A model generated the notes under the pieces. The model searched no databases and was not told the DNA's origin. It worked only from the letters and a program-made list of their open reading frames with translations. This document shows, in pieces, positions 5,073 through 29,730 of a stretch of DNA of 64,000 bases (the first letter of the stretch is position 1; every line of letters begins with the position of its first letter). Origin of the DNA: a virus (Duplodnaviria; Heunggongvirae; Uroviricota; Caudoviricetes); IMG/VR virus record IMGVR_UViG_3300018080_000111; one strand, given 5' to 3'. Both the position numbers and the translations under genes were made by a program.

Positions 5073-5157
5073 CGGAGCGAGGAGGATTCAAACCCCCAGT
5101 GCTTTTACACACTGTGGTTTTCAAGACCGCCGCCATAAGCCATTCGGCCATCGCTCC
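5073..5157 (-). tRNA. tRNA-Ser(UGA)
   Basis: Acceptor stem GGAGCGA/TCGCTCC, anticodon loop CTTGAAA, long variable arm, T-arm GGGGG-TTTGAAT-CCTCC, discriminator G, no encoded CCA. Confidence 0.92.
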
Positions 5158-13639: not shown

Positions 13640-13727
13640 TCCTCCCTTGGATATGGCTGGGAGTAACAAAACATAATTTAACTTAACTAAACTTAACGAA
13701 ATGCAACAGAACTCAACTTAGTTCGAT
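13640..13727 (-). ncRNA. Pentamer array B (11 perfect RTT-NN units plus 2 degenerate) with 3' hairpin; putative gapped guide RNA
   Basis: Plus-strand units from 13663: gtaac aaaac ataat ttaac ttaac taaac ttaac gaaat gcaac agaac tcaac; 27 bp (13640-13666) identical to 27698-27724. Confidence 0.8.
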
Positions 13728-13730
13728 GAA

Positions 13731-15695
13731 TTATTTCTGGGATTTTCGGAAAATGGATTTATACTTACTCGCCAAATCATTTCTTAAGGCCTCTTCCTTC
13801 TTTTCTTCAATTTTTTTCTTTCCACCCTTAATCGATCCTTCATCTACCCACCATAACCCCGAGAGAGGTTCTTCCTTCTTCTTTTCAAAGGCCTTTTTCA
13901 TTATATCTATATTTGGTGGGACTTTACATTCTTTCCGGGCCATCTCAACAGATACCACCACAGAGTCAGAACAGTCTTTGGATCCTTCTAAAACCAGTTC
14001 ATCCAGGCTTCCATCCTCTTTGGTAATAGATATGACCGCTTCCTTTGGATGATCTATCTTATTTGTATTGGGATCTTCTTCTAAGTGGGATAATTCAAAA
14101 TGCAGATAACCATGTCGATGACAAACCCAGCGACCATCTTTAACAAGATCATCCCTAAAACTTCGGTAATACTGGGGATTCTTATCAATAGATTCGTATT
14201 TACATTTAATTCCTGCTTTTTCAAGAATCTGGGTTGTGTCGGTACTTGCTAATTTGAGGTCAAAAGTGGCCAATGCTATATTAAACCCATAACTCTTCTT
14301 TAAAAGAATAAGAAATCTCCGTACTTTGGTTAAATCAATTTCATCATCTTCCGGGGCTTTAATTCTCATTACAAAATCTGTTTCTATGACTGGAACTTTA
14401 TCAACCCCAATACTTCCATCCTCCAAAGTTCTATTATTTTCCTTCCATCCAGAAACGCAGGACATTGCCAGTCCATATGCATCATGAGAAAAGGCGATGT
14501 CTCCATGAACATATCTTGGGATGTGCCGAGGAACCCTAATCTTATCCACATTTAGGAAATGAATTAATTCTTTTTCTTCCTCTTTCATCCCCAGATAAAT
14601 AGTGTTCATACTTACTGGATCTTCCTTTTTTGGGTCATAACAGTCCAATAGATATTTTTCGGATTTGAATAGTCGACTTTTCCTTAGGTAGCTGGCACTG
14701 ATACCTGCCAGGTCTCTTAACGCACCCGTGATGTCTTCTTGGAATGCTCTTCGAAAAACCTCGGGAACCTGTATAACTGTGAATCCGTTCGTAGTAGCTT
14801 CCTTTATCTCCTCTTTGGTTTCTATTATTTTAGACGGAGAATATATGTCGCCAATTCTGACTGGAAATTTGGAACAGCCCTCAAATTCCTTATCGTCAGC
14901 TTCCCATTTAGGAATATCAACAATATGGACGGCTTTATGTCCCTTTTTCTTTGCGATGAAAGCATTTACAAAGGATAGGTTTTCCTGCTTTGATGCGACA
15001 ATAAAGAATTTTCCTAAGGATTGTTCATTGATTACAAATCTATCCTCAAATCTACGAAGGGCAGACTCAACCGATTTAATTACTTTCTCCCTTTGTTTTA
15101 TTCCTGCCTTGGGGGAATCAACCTCATCCATAAGGGCTGCAATTACATCCTGGCCTAATTCTGCCTGTGAATAAGGGGAGGCAAGAATGTAATCAAATAG
15201 ATCAAAATGTATCTGAGGTTCCAAATTTCCTGAAATTCTTCCTTTGTTCCTAAACCACTCAGAGGATAGCAGATGGTTCTGGAGAACCCGGAATCCTTTA
15301 CTATCCCCTAGGGTTTTATTTAGGTTAAAAAAGACAATGGCCATTTTTCCGCCTGCCTGTTTGCGATAATATGCAAAAGGGTTACGTAAACAAAGGTGTA
15401 AATACATCACGAATGCTATCCCCAGAATAGCTGCACGGGATTTTCCTATTCCAATGGCACCAGTAAGGACGGGGAGGTATTTGGTGGGTTCACCCATTAG
15501 AAAGGATAGTTCTCTTCTCCACACAGGAAAGATGGCCTTTCCAGGAATCCCATCCTCATTCTTGGTAATTTTTCCTAAGAATTCCTCTCTTCGTAGAAAT
15601 TCCAAAAAGGAGACGGGGGTTTCCTTGTAATGTATTTTTGTGGTTGCTGACGTGAAGGTCGTTAACCAGCGTTGATCAGGATTCTTCTGGTTCAT
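13731..15695 (-). CDS. terL: Terminase large subunit
   Basis: Walker A VLTGAIGIGKS, Walker B ALMDEVD, RNase H-like HGDIAFSHDAYG and KDCSDSV. Confidence 0.85.
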   Translation of the reverse strand: MNQKNPDQRWLTTFTSATTKIHYKETPVSFLEFLRREEFLGKITKNEDGIPGKAIFPVWRRELSFLMGEPTKYLPVLTGAIGIGKSRAAILGIAFVMYLHLCLRNPFAYYRKQAGGKMAIVFFNLNKTLGDSKGFRVLQNHLLSSEWFRNKGRISGNLEPQIHFDLFDYILASPYSQAELGQDVIAALMDEVDSPKAGIKQREKVIKSVESALRRFEDRFVINEQSLGKFFIVASKQENLSFVNAFIAKKKGHKAVHIVDIPKWEADDKEFEGCSKFPVRIGDIYSPSKIIETKEEIKEATTNGFTVIQVPEVFRRAFQEDITGALRDLAGISASYLRKSRLFKSEKYLLDCYDPKKEDPVSMNTIYLGMKEEEKELIHFLNVDKIRVPRHIPRYVHGDIAFSHDAYGLAMSCVSGWKENNRTLEDGSIGVDKVPVIETDFVMRIKAPEDDEIDLTKVRRFLILLKKSYGFNIALATFDLKLASTDTTQILEKAGIKCKYESIDKNPQYYRSFRDDLVKDGRWVCHRHGYLHFELSHLEEDPNTNKIDHPKEAVISITKEDGSLDELVLEGSKDCSDSVVVSVEMARKECKVPPNIDIMKKAFEKKKEEPLSGLWWVDEGSIKGGKKKIEEKKEEALRNDLASKYKSIFRKSQK

Positions 15696-24837: not shown

Positions 24838-25355
24838 GCCATTTGCCCTAAACTGGATCTTCTGATCCATTCGGCAATTAATAGGGCATCACTTCTTCCA
24901 TCCTTCTTCCCTCCTCTAGGTCCCCTTAATTCTGCGGAGGGGAATAATCTTTCGGCGATCATTAGACTCTGTGCCTTCTTATCCCCTTTCGATTTTGTAA
25001 TTTGAAATTCCTTTTGCCAAGTTTTTGGAATGACTAACTCATATGGTATATTCAATCCTACCAGGAGGCCCTCAAAAATACCCTGACATAATCCTAGACC
25101 AAAGGTGGCCTGTATCCGGATTCCCGGGGGTAGGCTCTGCATTTTTTCGAGTGCGACGGTAACTTTTGTGGGTCCTATATCAGAAAAGTTCATAAGAATA
25201 TTTCTAATTGCCGGGATATCGTATTCTCGTTTCTTTTTCTTCCCTTTTGTAAATTCTATAATGGGAGTGTCGTATATCCATATATGTTTTCCTTGTTCAT
25301 CGACAACTCCGATTGCTCCCTGAAGTCCTGGATCAATTCCAATGTATAGACTCAT
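24834..25355 (-). CDS. ruvC: RuvC-like Holliday junction resolvase
   Basis: YIGIDPG, VALEK, FGLG, WQK, DGRSDALLIA. Confidence 0.85.
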   Translation of the reverse strand: MSLYIGIDPGLQGAIGVVDEQGKHIWIYDTPIIEFTKGKKKKREYDIPAIRNILMNFSDIGPTKVTVALEKMQSLPPGIRIQATFGLGLCQGIFEGLLVGLNIPYELVIPKTWQKEFQITKSKGDKKAQSLMIAERLFPSAELRGPRGGKKDGRSDALLIAEWIRRSSLGQMA

Positions 25356-25624
25356 TCTAGTCCATTCCTCTCTTCCAGCAACTTCCTCAGATATGAATTC
25401 TCTCGACGAGTCGCCTCAAGGTCGAAGAGTTGATACTTAATACATACCCTCAGATGATCCAGGGAATCCTGTAGACTGCTGATACTCTTTTCAAGCTTTG
25501 CTCTATTGGCTTTTGCCTGTTTGGCAAGTTGAACTAATTTCTTGTGTTGTGGATCAGTAGATCCTGAGGATTCTTCAATTAATTTGTCCAGTTGTTCTTT
25601 AAGATCGTTTTCATTCATTACCAT
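25352..25624 (-). CDS. Coiled-coil hypothetical protein
   Basis: Coupled to recA and ruvC. Confidence 0.6.
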   Translation of the reverse strand: MVMNENDLKEQLDKLIEESSGSTDPQHKKLVQLAKQAKANRAKLEKSISSLQDSLDHLRVCIKYQLFDLEATRRENSYLRKLLEERNGLE

Positions 25625-26685
25625 ACCCTCGCTTTTCTCTTCTCAGTTTTATGAAGTTCTTGCCAGGTTTTCCAGATTTCTTCACGAAGTTCTTTCTCCT
25701 TATTATTTTCTTCAATATATTGAATCCACTCTACTCGAGTTTTTTCTTCATCAAATATTTTTATTGTGGTTGTTTTATTCTTTGCTTTTTGATCTCCATT
25801 TTGGAGAATATTAAGAAATTGGATATTTGTGGAGATGTCATCTAGGCCATAGGAGAATAAGATTCGGAATCTTCCTTCTTTGAATGGGGGGGCAACCTTG
25901 TTCTTCGTAATCTTGAATTTTACCCAGATTCCAATTGGGCTTCCTTCCTTGTTTTTAATCCCTGAAAGGTGCTTAAGATGTATTTGAATTGAACTATAAA
26001 ATTCCAGAGCTCTTCCACCGGAGGTAACCTCTTTGTTCGCCGAAAAAGGTCCTGCTCCGATATTATCGCGAGTTTGATCTATACAAAATAGAGTTGTATT
26101 GCTTTCCGCAAGAGCAAATAAATACTTTCGGAATCCTTTGGACATCTGTTTGGCTCTGGAGGTTCCGTACGTCCCGTCCATCATACTTTCTTCCAATTCG
26201 ACCTGGGTGGGCAACGCGCTGACACTGTCAACTACTACTATTTTCGATTCTCTGTTTAGAGGATCCTTCTTTTTGATTTGTCCAGTAGGAGTCTTATTAT
26301 AGATGATATCTGAAAGATATACATCAAAAAACTCCTCTAGGGTGGAAGGATGTCCAACAATCACTTTATCACAATCTAGTCCATATAAGGATGCAAAATG
26401 AGGATCCAAAGTATGTTCTATATCAGCATAATATGCTTTTTTTCCAGAACGTTGGGCATATCCACAAACCATTGTTGCTAAGACGGATTTAGAAGTACTT
26501 CCTCCCCCAAAGACGTGGACTATTCTACCAACCGGAATACCACCCGGATATTGGTTTGCAAGAGCTATATCTAGAGTCGTACATCCGGTAGAAAAGAAAT
26601 TGCGGACTCCCGGAAGTCCAATAATATCTGAGGATTGTTTTGCAGTCTCTTTAATCGTATCTTCTATTTTTTCATTTTTAGACAT
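25618..26685 (-). CDS. recA: RecA/UvsX-like recombinase
   Basis: STGCTTLDIAL, GIPVGRIVHVFGGGSTSKS, VVVDSVSAL, SGGRALEFYSS, KNKVAPPF; start set at MSKNEK. Confidence 0.92.
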   Translation of the reverse strand: MSKNEKIEDTIKETAKQSSDIIGLPGVRNFFSTGCTTLDIALANQYPGGIPVGRIVHVFGGGSTSKSVLATMVCGYAQRSGKKAYYADIEHTLDPHFASLYGLDCDKVIVGHPSTLEEFFDVYLSDIIYNKTPTGQIKKKDPLNRESKIVVVDSVSALPTQVELEESMMDGTYGTSRAKQMSKGFRKYLFALAESNTTLFCIDQTRDNIGAGPFSANKEVTSGGRALEFYSSIQIHLKHLSGIKNKEGSPIGIWVKFKITKNKVAPPFKEGRFRILFSYGLDDISTNIQFLNILQNGDQKAKNKTTTIKIFDEEKTRVEWIQYIEENNKEKELREEIWKTWQELHKTEKRKARVW

Positions 26686-27262
26686 TTTTATCCACCATCC
26701 TCTCAACTGAAAATCTTCCAAAAGTTCCACAGGAAGGTGCACCTGGCCTCCAATGACCTATTCCAATAAATTCACCAGCAACCTGCAAATGTTCCAAAAC
26801 AATTTGTTCATTTAGGGCCCCAGCAATTGTAGGATAAACCACTGTAAGAGTTCCTTCCCATTTAGGGATCTTTGGGTATCTTCTTGAAATCCTTCCTCCA
26901 TCTGGTTTTCCATTAGAGGAGACAAAAGATTTTCTTCCTTGAATTGTATCTTTGGTAAGTTCGGTAACTATATCTCCCTCAATTTGTATCAATCTAATAT
27001 AATGGACTAAACCTTTTCCTCTTTTTCCTCCTCCTACTCTTTTTCCTAAAAGTTTGGCAGCAGGCTCCAGAGTTCTCTTTAGAAGAAAACCTGGGATGAT
27101 TACCTTTCCATCCTCATTGTAATGGGCTCTTTCCTTCCAATACCTCTCTTCAAATTGTTGAGGGGTTTCACCCTCTTCTTTTTCCTGATCGATGTATTGA
27201 TCAAACAGAACAGGACTGATACTTTTAAACTTTATTTTGATTCGTTTAACTAATTCATCCAT
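26678..27262 (-). CDS. Stand-alone RAMP/Cas7-like protein (Vipr-like), putative guide-binding filament subunit
   Basis: N-terminal IKFKSISPVLF, IIPGFLLKRTL (cf. iPGSslKG of Csm3/Cas7 RAMPs), C-terminal Gly-rich loop GEFIGIGHWRP...GTFGRFSVE; no other cas genes in the window. Confidence 0.72.
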   Translation of the reverse strand: MDELVKRIKIKFKSISPVLFDQYIDQEKEEGETPQQFEERYWKERAHYNEDGKVIIPGFLLKRTLEPAAKLLGKRVGGGKRGKGLVHYIRLIQIEGDIVTELTKDTIQGRKSFVSSNGKPDGGRISRRYPKIPKWEGTLTVVYPTIAGALNEQIVLEHLQVAGEFIGIGHWRPGAPSCGTFGRFSVERMVDKNV

Positions 27263-27698
27263 CTTTCTTCTCACTGTAAAAGGCAAATTTCAATAACTTC
27301 TTGAATTCTTTATCTTCTTTCTCTTTCAAACAACTATTCATTAAAGGAAGGAAACTAACCCCATTCTCTTTACAAATAAAGGACTTCTTCTTATCCCTTG
27401 CCATTTGTTTCCTATCCGTAAGATGCTGGAATCCTCCTGGCTCTATTGCACATACTAACTTTCCGTGTCGGAATACTGAAATGTCAATATGTGCATTTTT
27501 GTTCTTCCAGAAACTCTTGTATTTAGATGGCTCAGGAAAGAGTTCATATAGAGGCTGTTTTACAACAAAAGCCAGTTTTGGAAAACTTCGTTGTAGCCAA
27601 CAAACGAACTCCTCAATTGTTTTATTATCCGAATACATAAAGTAAAACCCCGACCAAGCATAATAATATGCAAGCACAATCGCTATCGGAAAATACAT
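27255..27698 (-). CDS. PD-(D/E)XK-like endonuclease (DUF559/DUF2726-like)
   Basis: HIDISV...AIEPGGFQH...QMARDKKKSFICKENGV; the SD is the 3' arm of the array hairpin; the stop overlaps the RAMP gene start. Confidence 0.55.
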   Translation of the reverse strand: MYFPIAIVLAYYYAWSGFYFMYSDNKTIEEFVCWLQRSFPKLAFVVKQPLYELFPEPSKYKSFWKNKNAHIDISVFRHGKLVCAIEPGGFQHLTDRKQMARDKKKSFICKENGVSFLPLMNSCLKEKEDKEFKKLLKFAFYSEKKDG

Positions 27699-27800
27699 CC
27701 TCCCTTGGATATGGCTGGGAGTAATAAAATGGAACGGAACGCAACACAACTTAACTTAATTTAAAACAATGCAACTTAACAAAACTTAATTCAACATAAT
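27698..27800 (-). ncRNA. Pentamer array A (16 RTT-NN units) with 3' hairpin; putative gapped guide RNA
   Basis: 27721-27800 parses exactly into 16 NN-AAY units on the plus strand (one unit ttaaa), followed on the minus strand by the CTCCC-N12-GGGAG hairpin shared with array B. Confidence 0.85.
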
Positions 27801-28324
27801 TAGAAATCATTTTCCAGATTCCTTTCCTCTTCTACTTCTCTTTCAAAGGACTTATCGAGTTCTCTTTCCTCCCCTAATAAACTCTGGTTCCCGTAATATT
27901 TATGAACAAACAAAGATACTAAACTTTGCAGCATACTCTTTCTTTGTCCCATACTATCTACTAGGATGGAGAAACCATCAGCTACTTTTGAAACCTCAAT
28001 AAGATCCCTTTTAGCCTCCTGATACGATTCTTGAATTGTTAAGGTTTCATTCACCGCGTCATTCGTTACTTTTCCCATAAGCCCAAATTCTTCTGGATTC
28101 CTTCGGATTCTTGATTTGAGATCAGCCTCCAAAAAATCTAGAGTATCTTTTGCCCTTTTTGCCAAGGATTTAGCAAGAGTGGATAACTCCCCAATTTCAT
28201 GATAAAGTTGCGGTTGTCTTCGACAAGCCTCATCAAGTTCATGAGCATTAATAGGAAGATTGGCTTTACACTCCTGTAAGGACTCTTGTAAATCATTTAA
28301 TTCGGATTCAAGTTCTTGATTCAT
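27800..28324 (-). CDS. UvsY-like recombination mediator
   Basis: Helical protein (INAHELDEACRRQPQLY...KVTNDAVNE) lying between SSB and recA. Confidence 0.6.
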   Translation of the reverse strand: MNQELESELNDLQESLQECKANLPINAHELDEACRRQPQLYHEIGELSTLAKSLAKRAKDTLDFLEADLKSRIRRNPEEFGLMGKVTNDAVNETLTIQESYQEAKRDLIEVSKVADGFSILVDSMGQRKSMLQSLVSLFVHKYYGNQSLLGEERELDKSFEREVEEERNLENDF

Positions 28325-28339
28325 ATTAATTCTCCAAAG

Positions 28340-28771
28340 TCAAAGGATACAAATCACAAATGCTATAAAAGCAATGAGCGTTAGAAGTACTCCCCCGATA
28401 CAAAATAGGCCGACTTCCGATTTTAAGAATTCATGAACCATGGATCTTTCCAGAGTATCCAATTTTTCCATCATTGGAAATCTTTCAAGATCCTCGGAAA
28501 CCGCATCTTCTACCATGGAATCCCATTCCATTTCTTCTGGAGTTTTTCCTCTCAAAAATTCTCCTGGAAAGAATCCTTCATCTAAATCCGCATCGGTTCT
28601 ACTCATTGCTTCGTAACATTCTTCGTGCATGTAGTCCGCATTAAAATCACCATCAAACGTATATACCCGATAGCGTGCTTTGGTTCCACTTTCAATCTTT
28701 TCGTCGCACCAAATACATTGATGATCCTTCCTTGTCTTAACCCACTTACTTTGGATTTCTTCAAAGGACAT
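28340..28771 (-). CDS. Hypothetical Zn-binding protein with C-terminal TM segment
   Basis: KTRKDHQCIWC...HEEC; hydrophobic tail. Confidence 0.55.
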   Translation of the reverse strand: MSFEEIQSKWVKTRKDHQCIWCDEKIESGTKARYRVYTFDGDFNADYMHEECYEAMSRTDADLDEGFFPGEFLRGKTPEEMEWDSMVEDAVSEDLERFPMMEKLDTLERSMVHEFLKSEVGLFCIGGVLLTLIAFIAFVICIL

Positions 28772-29730
28772 TACTCTTCCCCCGCTTTCGCTCTTTTTGC
28801 CTGTTCCAAACGCTGTTGTACCTTCTCCTTTATGCTACTTGATCTGGCAGTTCCAGCACTTCTGGTAGTCTCCGTTCTCTTGGGTTCCTTTTTCACCTCT
28901 TCTGCTGGTGGTGCTTCTTCTTCAACAACTTCTTCTTGTTCTTTAGCTGCTGATCTTCTCCGGGGCGGTTCCTCTTCCACTACTTCATCTGGAGTATCGT
29001 CAGTTGAATCATCGGTTGAATCTTCCTCTGGGGTATTTTCACCACATAAAGCTTCCCTGATCTCCTCTTCGGGGGACATCTTTAAAATATCCTCAAACTC
29101 TGGAAGATCCTCATACCACTCGTCTGGACAGGGATCCGAAGTATGTAAATCCACACCCACGTACTCGTATTTCTTTCCTTCTTTGGTTTGCTCAAAGGAA
29201 ATATCTCGACCGTCCTTTGGATGACTTATGTCGATCCATTTCTTATGATCTGCCCCATCCTCAGATCCTCCTCTTCTTTTATTCTTAGATCTGGAGCGAA
29301 TTTCATTAAACAACTTAACAGGACAATCAAACCAACGAACCCCCTTTGCCATTTCAGCATCACTAGAAACATCAACAACAAAGAATAAATACCTTCTTGA
29401 AGCGTAAAGGGCTGCCGCTCTCTTATCTTGAGGATCCTCTTTTCGGAAAGCATCTGCTTGATCACAAATCAGGCAGGGTTGATCAAACATTCTTTTGTAG
29501 CATAGGAAGGCTTTCCGGTTGACCCCAACATTACTATGCCTAAAGATTTCCAGGCCGTAAAACCCTTCCCTAGTAGGAGGAAAGACGATCCGAATCATAT
29601 TCTCTCCAATGCTGGGCTTATACCGGGTTATCCCTAAACGTTCCAATTTGGCAGTATCCACATAGTTAAAGTAGTTTCCTCCACCACTCTTTGAGAATTC
29701 TTTCTCCATTGCTGAACTTCTATCTACCAT
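28771..29730 (-). CDS. Single-stranded DNA-binding protein (gp32-like)
   Basis: GENMIRIVFPP, H..C..CLIC Zn ligands, RRYLFFVVD, long acidic tail. Confidence 0.75.
   Translation of the reverse strand: MVDRSSAMEKEFSKSGGGNYFNYVDTAKLERLGITRYKPSIGENMIRIVFPPTREGFYGLEIFRHSNVGVNRKAFLCYKRMFDQPCLICDQADAFRKEDPQDKRAAALYASRRYLFFVVDVSSDAEMAKGVRWFDCPVKLFNEIRSRSKNKRRGGSEDGADHKKWIDISHPKDGRDISFEQTKEGKKYEYVGVDLHTSDPCPDEWYEDLPEFEDILKMSPEEEIREALCGENTPEEDSTDDSTDDTPDEVVEEEPPRRRSAAKEQEEVVEEEAPPAEEVKKEPKRTETTRSAGTARSSSIKEKVQQRLEQAKRAKAGEE

What the first reader, a model, noticed from the sequence alone, without database searches (positions are those of the whole stretch)
27721..27800. Array A decodes to the RecA motif KFKxxKNKVAPPF, with mismatches to the phage's own recA
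The variable dinucleotides read 5'-3' are AT GA AA TT AA GC GT AA AA AA GT GC CC CC TT AC. Treated as codon positions 1-2 they give [IM][DE][KN][FL][KN]-A-V-[KN][KN][KN]-V-A-P-P-[FL]-T. The resident recA at 25882-25926 has codons TGG GTA AAA TTC AAG ATT ACG AAG AAC AAG GTT GCC CCC CCA TTC. That matches 11 of 15 units, including 8 in a row. Eight consecutive units fix 16 bases, about 3e-5 expected across both strands at uniform composition (somewhat more given the AT bias). The skipped base falls on the wobble position, and the self gene differs at two central units (I-T versus A-V). Inference: the guide targets a recA/uvsX allele of a competing relative, tolerates its synonymous escape, and spares self. 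Its sense matches the mRNA, which points to the DNA template strand as target.
Basis: partly seen in the sequence, partly recalled or inferred. Interest (0 to 1): 0.93.

Follow-up and report, generated by a model that had tools for sequence, protein, structure and literature searches.

The report
Phage VIPR guide aimed at recA
A large uncultured phage carries a variant of the recently described VIPR RNA-guided system, and one guide spells a conserved recA motif: it fits rival phages' recA and one bacterial clade's recA better than the phage's own copy.

Summary
On the minus strand, 27725-27799 holds 15 five-base units (U-U-N-N-R). A constant TTACT unit and a hairpin follow. Read with one skipped base, the variable dinucleotides match the phage's own recA at 25882-25926, in frame, in 11 of 15 units with 8 in a row. 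The next best site in the window has 7, and 0 of 1000 unit permutations reach 11.

It is a VIPR guide RNA (2026 preprints; SUSP1 phage). The 194-aa gene two genes downstream is a homologue of SUSP1 Vipr. Fourteen arrays in related loci share constant UU..R, free NN and a covarying tail hairpin. The constant triplet is RUU, not the published GGY. This scan has already noted GTT-NN guides on another genome.

The target is only partly settled. No phage recA with a perfect match was found. Sibling phages differ by 1-2 bases in units 3-15, and the phage's own gene by 4. The only perfect matches (13/13 units) are bacterial recA genes of Opitutia (Verrucomicrobiota), but a control shows such matches are not rare. 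Two other guides of this family match rival phages' copies of the gene next to the array better than the carrier's own copy.

Most likely target: rival phages' recA (about 55%); host recA about 25%.

The parts
27725..27799 (-). Array A: 15 variable guide units (UU-NN-R) of a vrRNA-like RNA. NN = AT GA AA TT AA GC GT AA AA AA GT GC CC CC TT.
   Evidence: family logo
27700..27724 (-). Constant terminal unit TTACT plus the 3' tail hairpin (5-bp stem CTCCC/GGGAG, 12-nt loop). Its 3' arm GGGAGG also sits as a Shine-Dalgarno sequence before the ATG at 27698-27696.
   Evidence: An identical 22-mer follows array B. The stem covaries in 13 of 14 family tails.
27255..27698 (-). vap-like accessory gene (127-147 aa depending on the start codon). 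Restriction-endonuclease-like (PD-(D/E)XK) fold; conserved HxD...IEPGG.QH...D.KK motif.
   Evidence: Not related to SUSP1 vap1.
26678..27262 (-). vipr-like gene: 194-aa minimal Cas7-like RAMP with the C-terminal glycine loop GIGHWRPGAPSxGxYGRF.
25618..26742 (-). The phage's own recA/UvsX-type recombinase gene.
   Evidence: Pfam RecA 5.8e-47 and PHROG 97
25882..25926 (-). Own recA site matched by array A: 11 of 15 units, in frame. Units 6-7 (ATT ACG = I-T) differ from the guide (GC GT = A-V) at all four bases.
13667..13716 (-). Array B: 10 variable guide units of a second, orphan vrRNA-like RNA.
13642..13666 (-). Terminal TTACT unit and tail hairpin of array B, identical to the tail of array A.
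13749..13778 (-). Own C-terminal codons (DLASKYKSIF) of the 654-aa gene 13731-15695, just upstream of array B. They match array B in 7 of 10 units. The same site in two related IMG/VR phage contigs matches 10 of 10.

Best explanation
Array A is the guide part of a VIPR RNA (vrRNA). It is transcribed from the minus strand, probably with the upstream gene or the vap-vipr operon. Copies of the 194-aa Vipr protein bind it, one per 5-base unit. The constant R-U-U bases are held by the protein, and each NN dinucleotide is presented for pairing with two bases of double-stranded DNA, skipping every third base. This mechanism is taken from the SUSP1 system and is inferred here, not shown.

The 15 NN pairs spell codon positions 1-2 of the RecA motif K-F/L-K-A-V-K-N-K-V-A-P-P-F. 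The guide has mRNA sense, so it would pair with the template strand of recA.

The most likely natural targets are the recA genes of co-infecting sibling phages. Their alleles (VV, AT and IV at the two variable residues) lie 1-2 bases from the guide. The carrier's linked recA (IT) differs at all four bases of two adjacent central units, so it probably escapes. The nuclease-like vap suggests the outcome may be cleavage rather than only silencing.

The guide sits next to the resistant allele, which makes a linked weapon-plus-immunity module.
For: 1. VIPR membership.
- The family profile matches the SUSP1 Vipr: hhalign 97.5%, E 7e-12. SUSP1 Vipr is the only PDB sequence hit (36pp, E 7e-10).
- The fold matches Cas7/Csm3 RAMPs (E 3e-9).
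- Fourteen arrays in 10 related loci (the window included) show T .99, T .99, N, N, R .97 with all 16 dinucleotides used.
- The tail hairpin has 8 compensatory stem variants.

2. The code.
- Only the 1-base skip gives outlier matches, for three independent arrays. Reversed guides give none.
- The recA match beats all 1000 permutations.

3. Rival-phage targets in this family.
- Array B matches 10/10 units at the C-terminal codons of the orthologue of its neighbouring gene in two IMG/VR phage contigs. The phage's own copy matches 7/10, differing by Leu TTG vs CTC, Ser AGT vs TCA, and Ser (TCC) in place of Asn.
- Array L029a matches 12/14 in a relative (L031) against 9/14 in its own adjacent gene.

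4. The recA alleles.
- L034 (RecA 89% identical) and L035 (74%) match 12/13 of units 3-15.
- Four IMG/VR contigs (RecA 70% identical, VV allele) differ by a single base.
- The phage's own gene differs by 4 bases.
- By the published bioinformatic criterion of at least 80% NN match over the 15 units, L034 and L035 reach 83% and the VV contigs 87% by my count. The phage's own gene, at 77%, does not pass.

5. Relatives L034 and L035 lack vap and vipr upstream of recA, so the module is an insertion next to recA.

6. Published cryo-EM has pairing advance towards the 5' edge of the vrRNA. This fits a perfect 3' block with mismatched 5' units 1-2.
Against: - No phage recA with a perfect match (KFKAV...) was found in IMG/VR, in JGI metagenomes or among the 120 nearest RecA proteins. 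Published natural VIPR targets are mostly perfect matches.
- The only perfect natural matches are bacterial.
- The phage's own gene, at 4 base mismatches, sits at the median of 69 phage-type RecA homologues, so it is not unusually distant.
- If units 1-2 are not part of the mature guide, the own site reaches 22/26 = 85% and would pass the 80% rule.
- Nothing here shows expression, RNP formation, DNA binding or mismatch tolerance for this RUU family.
Confidence: 0.55

Rival explanations
1. The guide is aimed at the host's chromosomal recA. The phage silences or cuts host recA, which would block the SOS response, prophage induction or RecA-dependent defence, and it supplies its own guide-resistant RecA from the gene next to the module. 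The host would then be an Opitutia (Verrucomicrobiota) bacterium whose recA encodes KLKAVKNKVAPPFT.
For: - The pattern of units 3-15 (26 fixed bases) hit 6 JGI metagenome contigs and 8 of 185,579 species genomes. All are bacterial recA of Opitutia/Opitutaceae, all in frame, and all 13/13 units despite different wobble bases.
- These are the only perfect natural matches found, and published VIPR targets are mostly perfect.
- The phage RecA is only 34% identical to these RecAs, so the match is not inherited from a recent gene transfer.
- The perfect allele is rare within its own class: in 401 genomes sampled only the seed genome had it, and the usual allele is K[IVL]KVV.
- Another note of this scan (e1-5345848, unchecked) reports a VIPR guide spelling bacterial restriction-gene motifs.
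Against: - Look-elsewhere control: in the same 401 genomes a pseudo-guide with VV instead of AV would be perfect in 4 species. A phage-type recA code often finds some perfect bacterial match by motif conservation alone.
- There is no independent host link. The first 40 kb of the window share no DNA beyond a 35-base tRNA piece with 5 of the perfect-match genomes.
- Host-like genes in the window (PEP-CTERM-like, TPS) point nowhere specific.
- Phage GC is 38.5% against 51-61% in the loci carrying these recA genes.
- The two other decoded guides of this family target phages, not hosts.
- Array B has no match in 5 of these genomes.
Confidence: 0.25
2. The guide regulates the phage's own recA. Partial pairing (the 8 tail-proximal units plus 3 more) lets the RNP dock weakly on the neighbouring recA gene and tune its transcription during infection.
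For: - The best match in the window is the phage's own recA, 1.8 kb downstream in the same gene string.
- Over units 3-15 the own site reaches 22/26 bases, counted.
- Arrays B and L029a also sit beside the gene they resemble.
Against: - In all three cases foreign alleles match better than the carrier's own allele.
- In array B the own gene differs by synonymous codon-family switches, which looks like avoidance rather than maintenance of pairing.
- In the published systems no self hit passes the 80% criterion.
- recA adjacency is not conserved among loci with this Vipr family; radical SAM, ThyA or DnaB genes follow instead.
Confidence: 0.08
3. The array is not a guide. It could be a protein-binding RNA operator (TRAP- or gp32-like) or a DNA iteron array, and the recA resemblance would be chance.
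For: - A period-5 array lies directly upstream of a ribosome-binding site.
- There are no RNA data.
Against: - A Vipr homologue is encoded two genes downstream.
- 0 of 1000 permutations reach the recA match.
- Three arrays decode in frame to orthologous genes under one skip rule only.
- Array B has no downstream gene start.
Confidence: 0.03

Closest known systems
Type II VIPR of Escherichia phage SUSP1 (Vipr + vap1 + four vrRNAs; bioRxiv 10.64898/2026.04.26.720920, 10.64898/2026.04.26.720927, 10.64898/2026.10.15.759431; PDB 36pp)
   Same: - Homologous ~195-aa Vipr RAMP with the same C-terminal G.G.WRP...GRFSVE motif.
- Small two-gene locus in a phage, flanked by non-coding arrays.
- 10-18 five-base units with a constant triplet and hypervariable NN.
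- A constant structured 3' tail.
- Targets read by the 1-base-skip rule in coding sequence, with the skip on the wobble base.
- Targets in rival mobile elements, and no strong self hit.
   Different: - The constant triplet is R-U-U instead of G-G-Y. The text of the preprint names only the variants NNNGG, YNNNG and NNNNG.
- The tail is a bare 5-bp hairpin that starts inside a constant UUAC[UC] unit, not a pseudoknot.
- The accessory protein is a restriction-endonuclease-like fold unrelated to vap1.
- All decoded targets are in mRNA sense.
- The guides lie next to the carrier's own, mismatched copy of the target gene.
- One orphan array lies 14 kb from vipr.
VIPR types III-V (nuclease or helicase vap genes; same preprint)
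   Same: The accessory gene is predicted to be a DNA-cutting enzyme, which implies target destruction rather than repression alone.
   Different: Those types are described as enriched in cellular defence islands and as acting against viruses. This locus is in a lytic-type T4-like phage. Its place in the seven-type tree could not be tested here.
Class 1 CRISPR Cas7 backbones (type III Csm3/Cmr4, type VII Cas7)
   Same: Best structural matches of the 194-aa protein. Both use one RAMP subunit per fixed guide increment, with a thumb that flips out bases.
   Different: - There is no CRISPR array and there are no other cas genes.
- The increment is 5 nt on the guide and 3 nt on the target, against 6/6 in CRISPR.
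- Guides are hard-wired pentamer arrays, not acquired spacers.
   Same: The same constant GTT/RTT triplet, and guides spelling conserved motifs of sibling phages' genes.
   Different: It is on another genome. It is an AI note that I did not re-test.

Membership tests
VIPR system | Vipr protein: a minimal RAMP homologous to the characterised SUSP1 Vipr | tested here: met
   hhalign of A1 against the SUSP1 195-aa protein gives 97.5%, E 7e-12. The A1 profile hits only 'SUSP1 Vipr protein' 36pp in PDB sequences, E 7e-10. The AF2 model (pLDDT 88) matches Cas7/Csm3.
VIPR system | vrRNA made of about 9-16 tandem 5-nt units with a constant triplet and hypervariable NN | tested here: met
   Arrays A (15 units) and B (10 units), plus 12 more arrays of 7-18 units in related loci. 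NN information is about 0.1 bit against 1.9 bits for the UU positions.
VIPR system | The constant triplet is GGY, or one of the published variants that keep the 3' G (NNNGG, YNNNG, NNNNG) | tested here: not met
   In the published register the unit here is U-N-N-R-U. The last position is U in 99% of 186 units (the preprint's wording is). The preprint's fig. S17 could not be viewed.
VIPR system | An invariant, structured 3' tail after the repeat tract | tested here: met
   The two window arrays have identical 22-nt tails. A 5-bp stem is present in 13 of 14 tails, with 8 different compensatory sequences. It is a hairpin, not the SUSP1 pseudoknot.
VIPR system | Targets obey the 1-nt skip rule, mostly in coding sequence with the skip on the wobble base | tested here: met
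   Arrays A, B and L029a give outlier in-frame matches only at skip 1.
VIPR system | An adjacent accessory (vap) gene with a DNA-related function | tested here: met
   A conserved ~125-aa gene lies next to vipr in 6 loci. It has weak DUF2726/REase_MTES_1575 hits and restriction-endonuclease-like fold hits. Nuclease activity is inferred.
VIPR system | The vrRNA is expressed, co-purifies with Vipr, and the RNP binds and silences dsDNA targets | not testable with these tools
   No RNA run holds the locus. This needs bench work.
CRISPR-Cas class 1 | A CRISPR repeat-spacer array and further cas genes (Cas5, Cas6, large subunit, adaptation genes) | tested here: not met
   No CRISPR-like repeats appear in the tandem or direct repeat scans of the window. 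The neighbours are vap, recA, gp32-like and clamp-loader genes.
TRAP-like or gp32-like RNA operator | Phased short RNA motifs bound by an oligomeric regulator to control the downstream cistron | tested here: not met
   Array B has no downstream start codon. The NN positions carry target information.

The most novel reading that the evidence does not exclude
The phage uses a hard-wired RNA guide to shut down or cut its host's chromosomal recA, at the most conserved RecA motif and blind to wobble changes, while running on its own guide-resistant RecA encoded beside the guide. The perfect 13-unit match would then also name the host: a narrow Opitutia clade. This would be a VIPR system turned against a housekeeping host gene, with a built-in replacement for it.
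Probability: 0.22. Interest if true: 0.85.

Novelty: new variant of a known kind. Interest (0 to 1): 0.62.

Why it matters
VIPR was described only in 2026, and its published guides use GGY as the constant triplet. This locus shows a well-populated sister family (31 Vipr homologues, 14 arrays) that uses RUU, has a minimal hairpin tail and carries a nuclease-like partner. The Vipr scaffold can therefore read quite different constant triplets, which bears on how the code is enforced and on engineering.

The window also suggests a rule not spelled out in the preprint sections I read. In three cases the guide sits beside the carrier's own mismatched copy of the gene it targets in relatives. Twice, that own copy differs by synonymous Leu/Ser codon-family switches, the only silent escape from a code that ignores wobble bases. 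This looks like a linked weapon-plus-immunity module among sibling phages. It predicts diversifying selection at guide footprints such as the two variable residues of the RecA motif.

If the host-recA reading were right instead, it would be a new way for a phage to take over host DNA repair and a sequence-only route to host assignment.

Tried and rejected
- TRAP/gp32-like operator or iteron reading (my first idea): dropped once the identical tails, the Vipr homologue and the in-frame decodes appeared.
- Rfam gathering scan of the window: only a tRNA.
- blastn of 25000-29000 and tblastn of the Vipr protein against cultured-phage records: no match.
- Exact search for the 26-nt tail in IMG/VR: none.
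- No whole genome is held for the window.
- Array B against the window alone: 7/11 units at two places, which is not significant (320 of 1000 permutations). Its meaning comes only from the 10/10 hits in relatives.
- Other family arrays (L023, L025a/b, L026, L029b/c, L030, L032a-c, L027) against all held DNA: nothing above permutation maxima.
- Host link:
  - BLAST of window 1-40000 against 5 perfect-match Opitutia genomes gave only a 35-nt tRNA piece. Window 40001-64000 was not searched.
  - Laying the contigs of the source sediment run and two related runs on an Opitutia recA gave only short conserved pieces under 100 nt from many organisms, and no long contig. Co-occurrence is therefore neither shown nor excluded.
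  - Atlas look-ups of two host-like genes gave mixed phyla.
- No RNA holder is listed for the locus.
- Promoter and terminator scans around both arrays: nothing above shuffles.
- DNA for P0035's contig could not be fetched.

Full report
**What is in the sequence**

On the minus strand, 27799 down to 27720 reads as 16 consecutive five-base units that all start with TT. A second run of 11 such units lies at 13716-13662. The window has no other run longer than 5 units.

Both runs end with TTACT and are followed by the same 22 bases, which occur nowhere else in the window. Those bases fold into a 5-bp hairpin, CTCCC/GGGAG. Array A fills the whole gap between the stop codon of ORF 27800-28324 and the ribosome-binding site of the next gene. 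The 3' arm of the hairpin doubles as that site.

**Is the recA match real?**

I read the NN pairs with 0, 1, 2 or 3 skipped bases and scanned both strands of the window.

| Rule | Best match for array A |
|---|---|
| 1-base skip | 11 of 16 units (8 in a row) at 25880-25926, minus strand; next best anywhere, 7 |
| 0, 2 or 3 bases skipped | 7-8 units, apart from the array matching itself |

The 1-skip site lies inside the phage's recA/UvsX-type gene, in frame, with the skipped base on codon position 3. None of 1000 permutations of the units reaches 11; the maximum is 10, seen 3 times.

The same test on array B gives 7 of 11 units at two places, which is not significant on its own.

**What kind of thing it is**

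VIPR systems consist of:
- a minimal Cas7-like RAMP protein (Vipr);
- a small accessory gene (vap);
- vrRNAs made of 9-16 units with a constant GGY triplet and hypervariable NN, capped by a constant structured 3' tail.

The NN pairs recognise double-stranded DNA with one target base skipped per unit. That base usually falls on the wobble position of a coding target. Natural targets are mostly rival mobile elements.

I tested each defining feature here.
- **Vipr protein.** The ORF 26678-27262 (194 aa) has 31 homologues of about 190 aa. Its AlphaFold model (pLDDT 88) matches type VII Cas7 and Csm3 (E 3e-9). Its family profile aligns to the SUSP1 Vipr protein with 97.5% probability, E 7e-12. The alignment includes the shared C-terminal G.G.WRP...GRFSVE loop. 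SUSP1 Vipr (PDB 36pp) is the only hit of the profile among all PDB sequences.
- **Arrays in relatives.** The homologues' loci carry the same small partner gene and 12 further TTNNR arrays of 7-18 units.
- **Repeat logo.** Over 186 units the logo is T .99, T .99, N, N, R .97, and all 16 dinucleotides are used.
- **Tail.** In 13 of 14 tails a perfect 5-bp stem begins at the fourth base of the terminal TTAC[TC] unit. There are eight different compensatory stem sequences.

So this is a VIPR system, but its constant triplet is R-U-U rather than G-G-Y. That differs from the variants named in the preprint's text. The tail is a simple hairpin rather than a pseudoknot.

One consequence matters for the finding. 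The 16th 'unit' (AC) is constant and partly base-paired in the hairpin, so it is not a guide unit. The guide has 15 units.

**The partner gene**

The gene between the array and vipr (127-147 aa) is conserved. It is unrelated to SUSP1 vap1. It gives weak DUF2726 and REase_MTES_1575 hits. Its confident model (pLDDT 88) gives weak restriction-endonuclease-like fold hits: BstEII at 2.8e-3, the I-Bth0305I catalytic domain and Hjc. A nuclease role is an inference.

**Does the 1-skip code hold in this family?**

Three arrays decode independently.
- **Array A**, as above.
- **Array B.** Units 1-10 match exactly two IMG/VR phage contigs, L027 and L028, in frame. The site is the last codons (DLASKYKNIF) of the orthologue of the 654-aa gene that ends 15 bases upstream of array B in this window. 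The window's own copy encodes DLASKYKSIF but uses TTG for Leu and AGT for Ser where the guide needs CT and TC. It also has Ser (TCC) in place of Asn. It therefore matches only 7 of 10 units.
- **Array L029a.** It lies 2 bases after the stop codon of a 430-aa gene. It matches 12 of 14 units at the C-terminal codons of the orthologous gene in another phage contig (L031), but only 9 of 14 in its own neighbour.

For all three arrays, only skip 1 gives outliers, and reversed guides give none.

All three decodes are in mRNA sense. The pooled NN composition is G/A-rich first and A/T-rich second, with TA almost absent. To my eye this resembles codon positions 1-2, though I ran no comparison against a codon table.

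**What does array A target?**

| Collection | Pattern | Result |
|---|---|---|
| IMG/VR | units 3-12 | no hit |
| IMG/VR | 10-unit core AVKNKVAPPF | 7 contigs, none above 12 of 16 units |
| JGI metagenome contigs | units 3-15 | 6 records |
| 185,579 species genomes | units 3-15 | 8 records |

All 14 metagenome and genome records are ordinary bacterial recA genes of Opitutia/Opitutaceae (Verrucomicrobiota) encoding RTKLKAVKNKVAPPFT. All match 13 of 13 units despite differing wobble bases. The phage RecA is only 34% identical to them.

This is the only perfect natural match I found, but a control weakens it. In 401 sampled genomes of the same class, 145 carry a recA site within 3 bases of the guide. 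A pseudo-guide with VV instead of AV would be perfect in four species. So a phage-type recA code will often find some perfect bacterial match simply because the motif is so conserved.

I found no independent host link.
- The first 40 kb of the window share no DNA with five of the perfect-match genomes beyond a tRNA fragment.
- The source sediment run shows only short conserved recA pieces when laid on an Opitutia recA.
- Host-like genes in the window point to no single phylum.

**The sibling phages**

Among the 120 closest RecA proteins the motif is W-V-K-F-K-x-x-K-N-K-V-A-P-P-F, and the two x residues vary even between close relatives.

| recA allele | RecA identity to this phage | x-x residues | Base mismatches in units 3-15 (26 bases) | NN match over 15 units (30 bases) |
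|---|---|---|---|---|
| Own gene | - | IT | 4 (all four bases of adjacent units 6-7) | 23/30 = 77% |
| L034 | 89% | AT | 2 | 25/30 = 83% |
| L035 | 74% | IV | 2 | 25/30 = 83% |
| L037-L040 (four IMG/VR contigs) | 70% | VV | 1 | 26/30 = 87% |
| Opitutia bacterial recA | 34% | AV | 0 | 26/30 = 87% |

The last column is my own count from the codons printed.

Of the 69 homologues with a recognisable motif, 6 differ from the guide by 1 base, 10 by 2, and none by 0. By the preprint's bioinformatic threshold of at least 80% NN match, with no self hits passing, every allele in the table passes except the phage's own. If units 1-2 are not part of the mature RNA, the own site would reach 85%. Self-sparing is therefore plausible but not shown.

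Relatives L034 and L035 have no vap or vipr between the preceding gene and recA. The module is thus an insertion right beside recA.

**Weighing the readings**

Three points favour rival phages' recA as the target, about 55%:
- the family precedent of two other guides aimed at siblings' copies of the neighbouring gene;
- the near-perfect sibling alleles;
- the linkage of the guide to a mismatched own allele.

Pairing in the solved SUSP1 complexes advances towards the 5' edge of the vrRNA. That fits a perfect tail-proximal block with mismatches at units 1-2.

The host-recA reading keeps about 25%. It rests on the only perfect match, and published natural targets are usually perfect. Autoregulation of the phage's own recA and a non-guide reading are unlikely.

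**Novelty**

VIPR itself is in print as preprints. This scan has already noted GTT-NN guides on another genome (e1-5384696). What this window adds is:
- a tested link of the RUU family to SUSP1 Vipr;
- the covarying hairpin tail, and the correction of the last unit;
- a nuclease-like partner gene;
- recA as a target;
- the guide-beside-resistant-allele arrangement, with synonymous codon-family escape.

I class it as a new variant of a known kind.

Noticed in passing
window 13642-13778 (-); L027:175-203, L028:4230-4258: Orphan array B, 14 kb from vipr, matches 10/10 units at the last codons of the orthologue of its neighbouring 654-aa gene in two IMG/VR phage contigs. The window's own copy keeps Leu and Ser but switches codon family (TTG for CTC, AGT for TCA) and so escapes, matching 7/10.
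   Followed up: yes
L029:2342-2469 and L031:1954-1995: A third case of the same layout. A 14-unit array lies 2 bases after the stop codon of a 430-aa gene. It matches 12/14 units in the orthologue's C-terminal codons in another phage, but only 9/14 in its own neighbour.
   Followed up: yes
window 26678-27799 compared with L034:242-778 and L035:2783-3501: The closest relatives have recA directly after the ~176-aa gene (a 188-bp gap in L035), with no vap or vipr. The array-vap-vipr module looks like an insertion beside recA.
   Followed up: partly
L035:5340-5400 (the same contig as L027): The sibling phage that array B targets carries its own TTNNR array, with a tail hairpin like this window's, about 800 bp downstream of its recA. 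No vipr gene is visible in the stretches held. Its target was not found.
   Followed up: partly
L032:2770-2990: Three TTNNR arrays in tandem, each with its own TTAC[CT] unit and hairpin tail, upstream of the vipr homologue. This is a multi-guide array like the SUSP1 downstream array.
   Followed up: no
14 arrays, 186 units (window and loci L023-L032): The pooled NN composition (first base G .37, A .33; second base A .34, T .32; TA almost absent) looks like codon positions 1-2 in sense orientation. This suggests the family's guides are generally written in mRNA sense.
   Followed up: partly
window 27696-27705 and L023 tail: The 3' arm of the tail hairpin (GGGAGG) lies directly before the ATG of the vap-like gene. 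Folding of the tail could therefore occlude the vap ribosome-binding site.
   Followed up: no
Its identity is open.
   Followed up: partly
window 5073-5157 (-): A tRNA-Ser (anticodon UGA) gene. A 35-nt piece of it is the only DNA the first 40 kb of the window share with the Opitutia genomes searched.
   Followed up: no
RecA homologues P0032-P0151: The two residues before KNKVAPPF vary even between close sibling phages (IT, AT, IV, VV, ID, IA and others), exactly under the centre of the guide footprint. This could be diversifying selection by VIPR guides, but it was not tested.
   Followed up: partly
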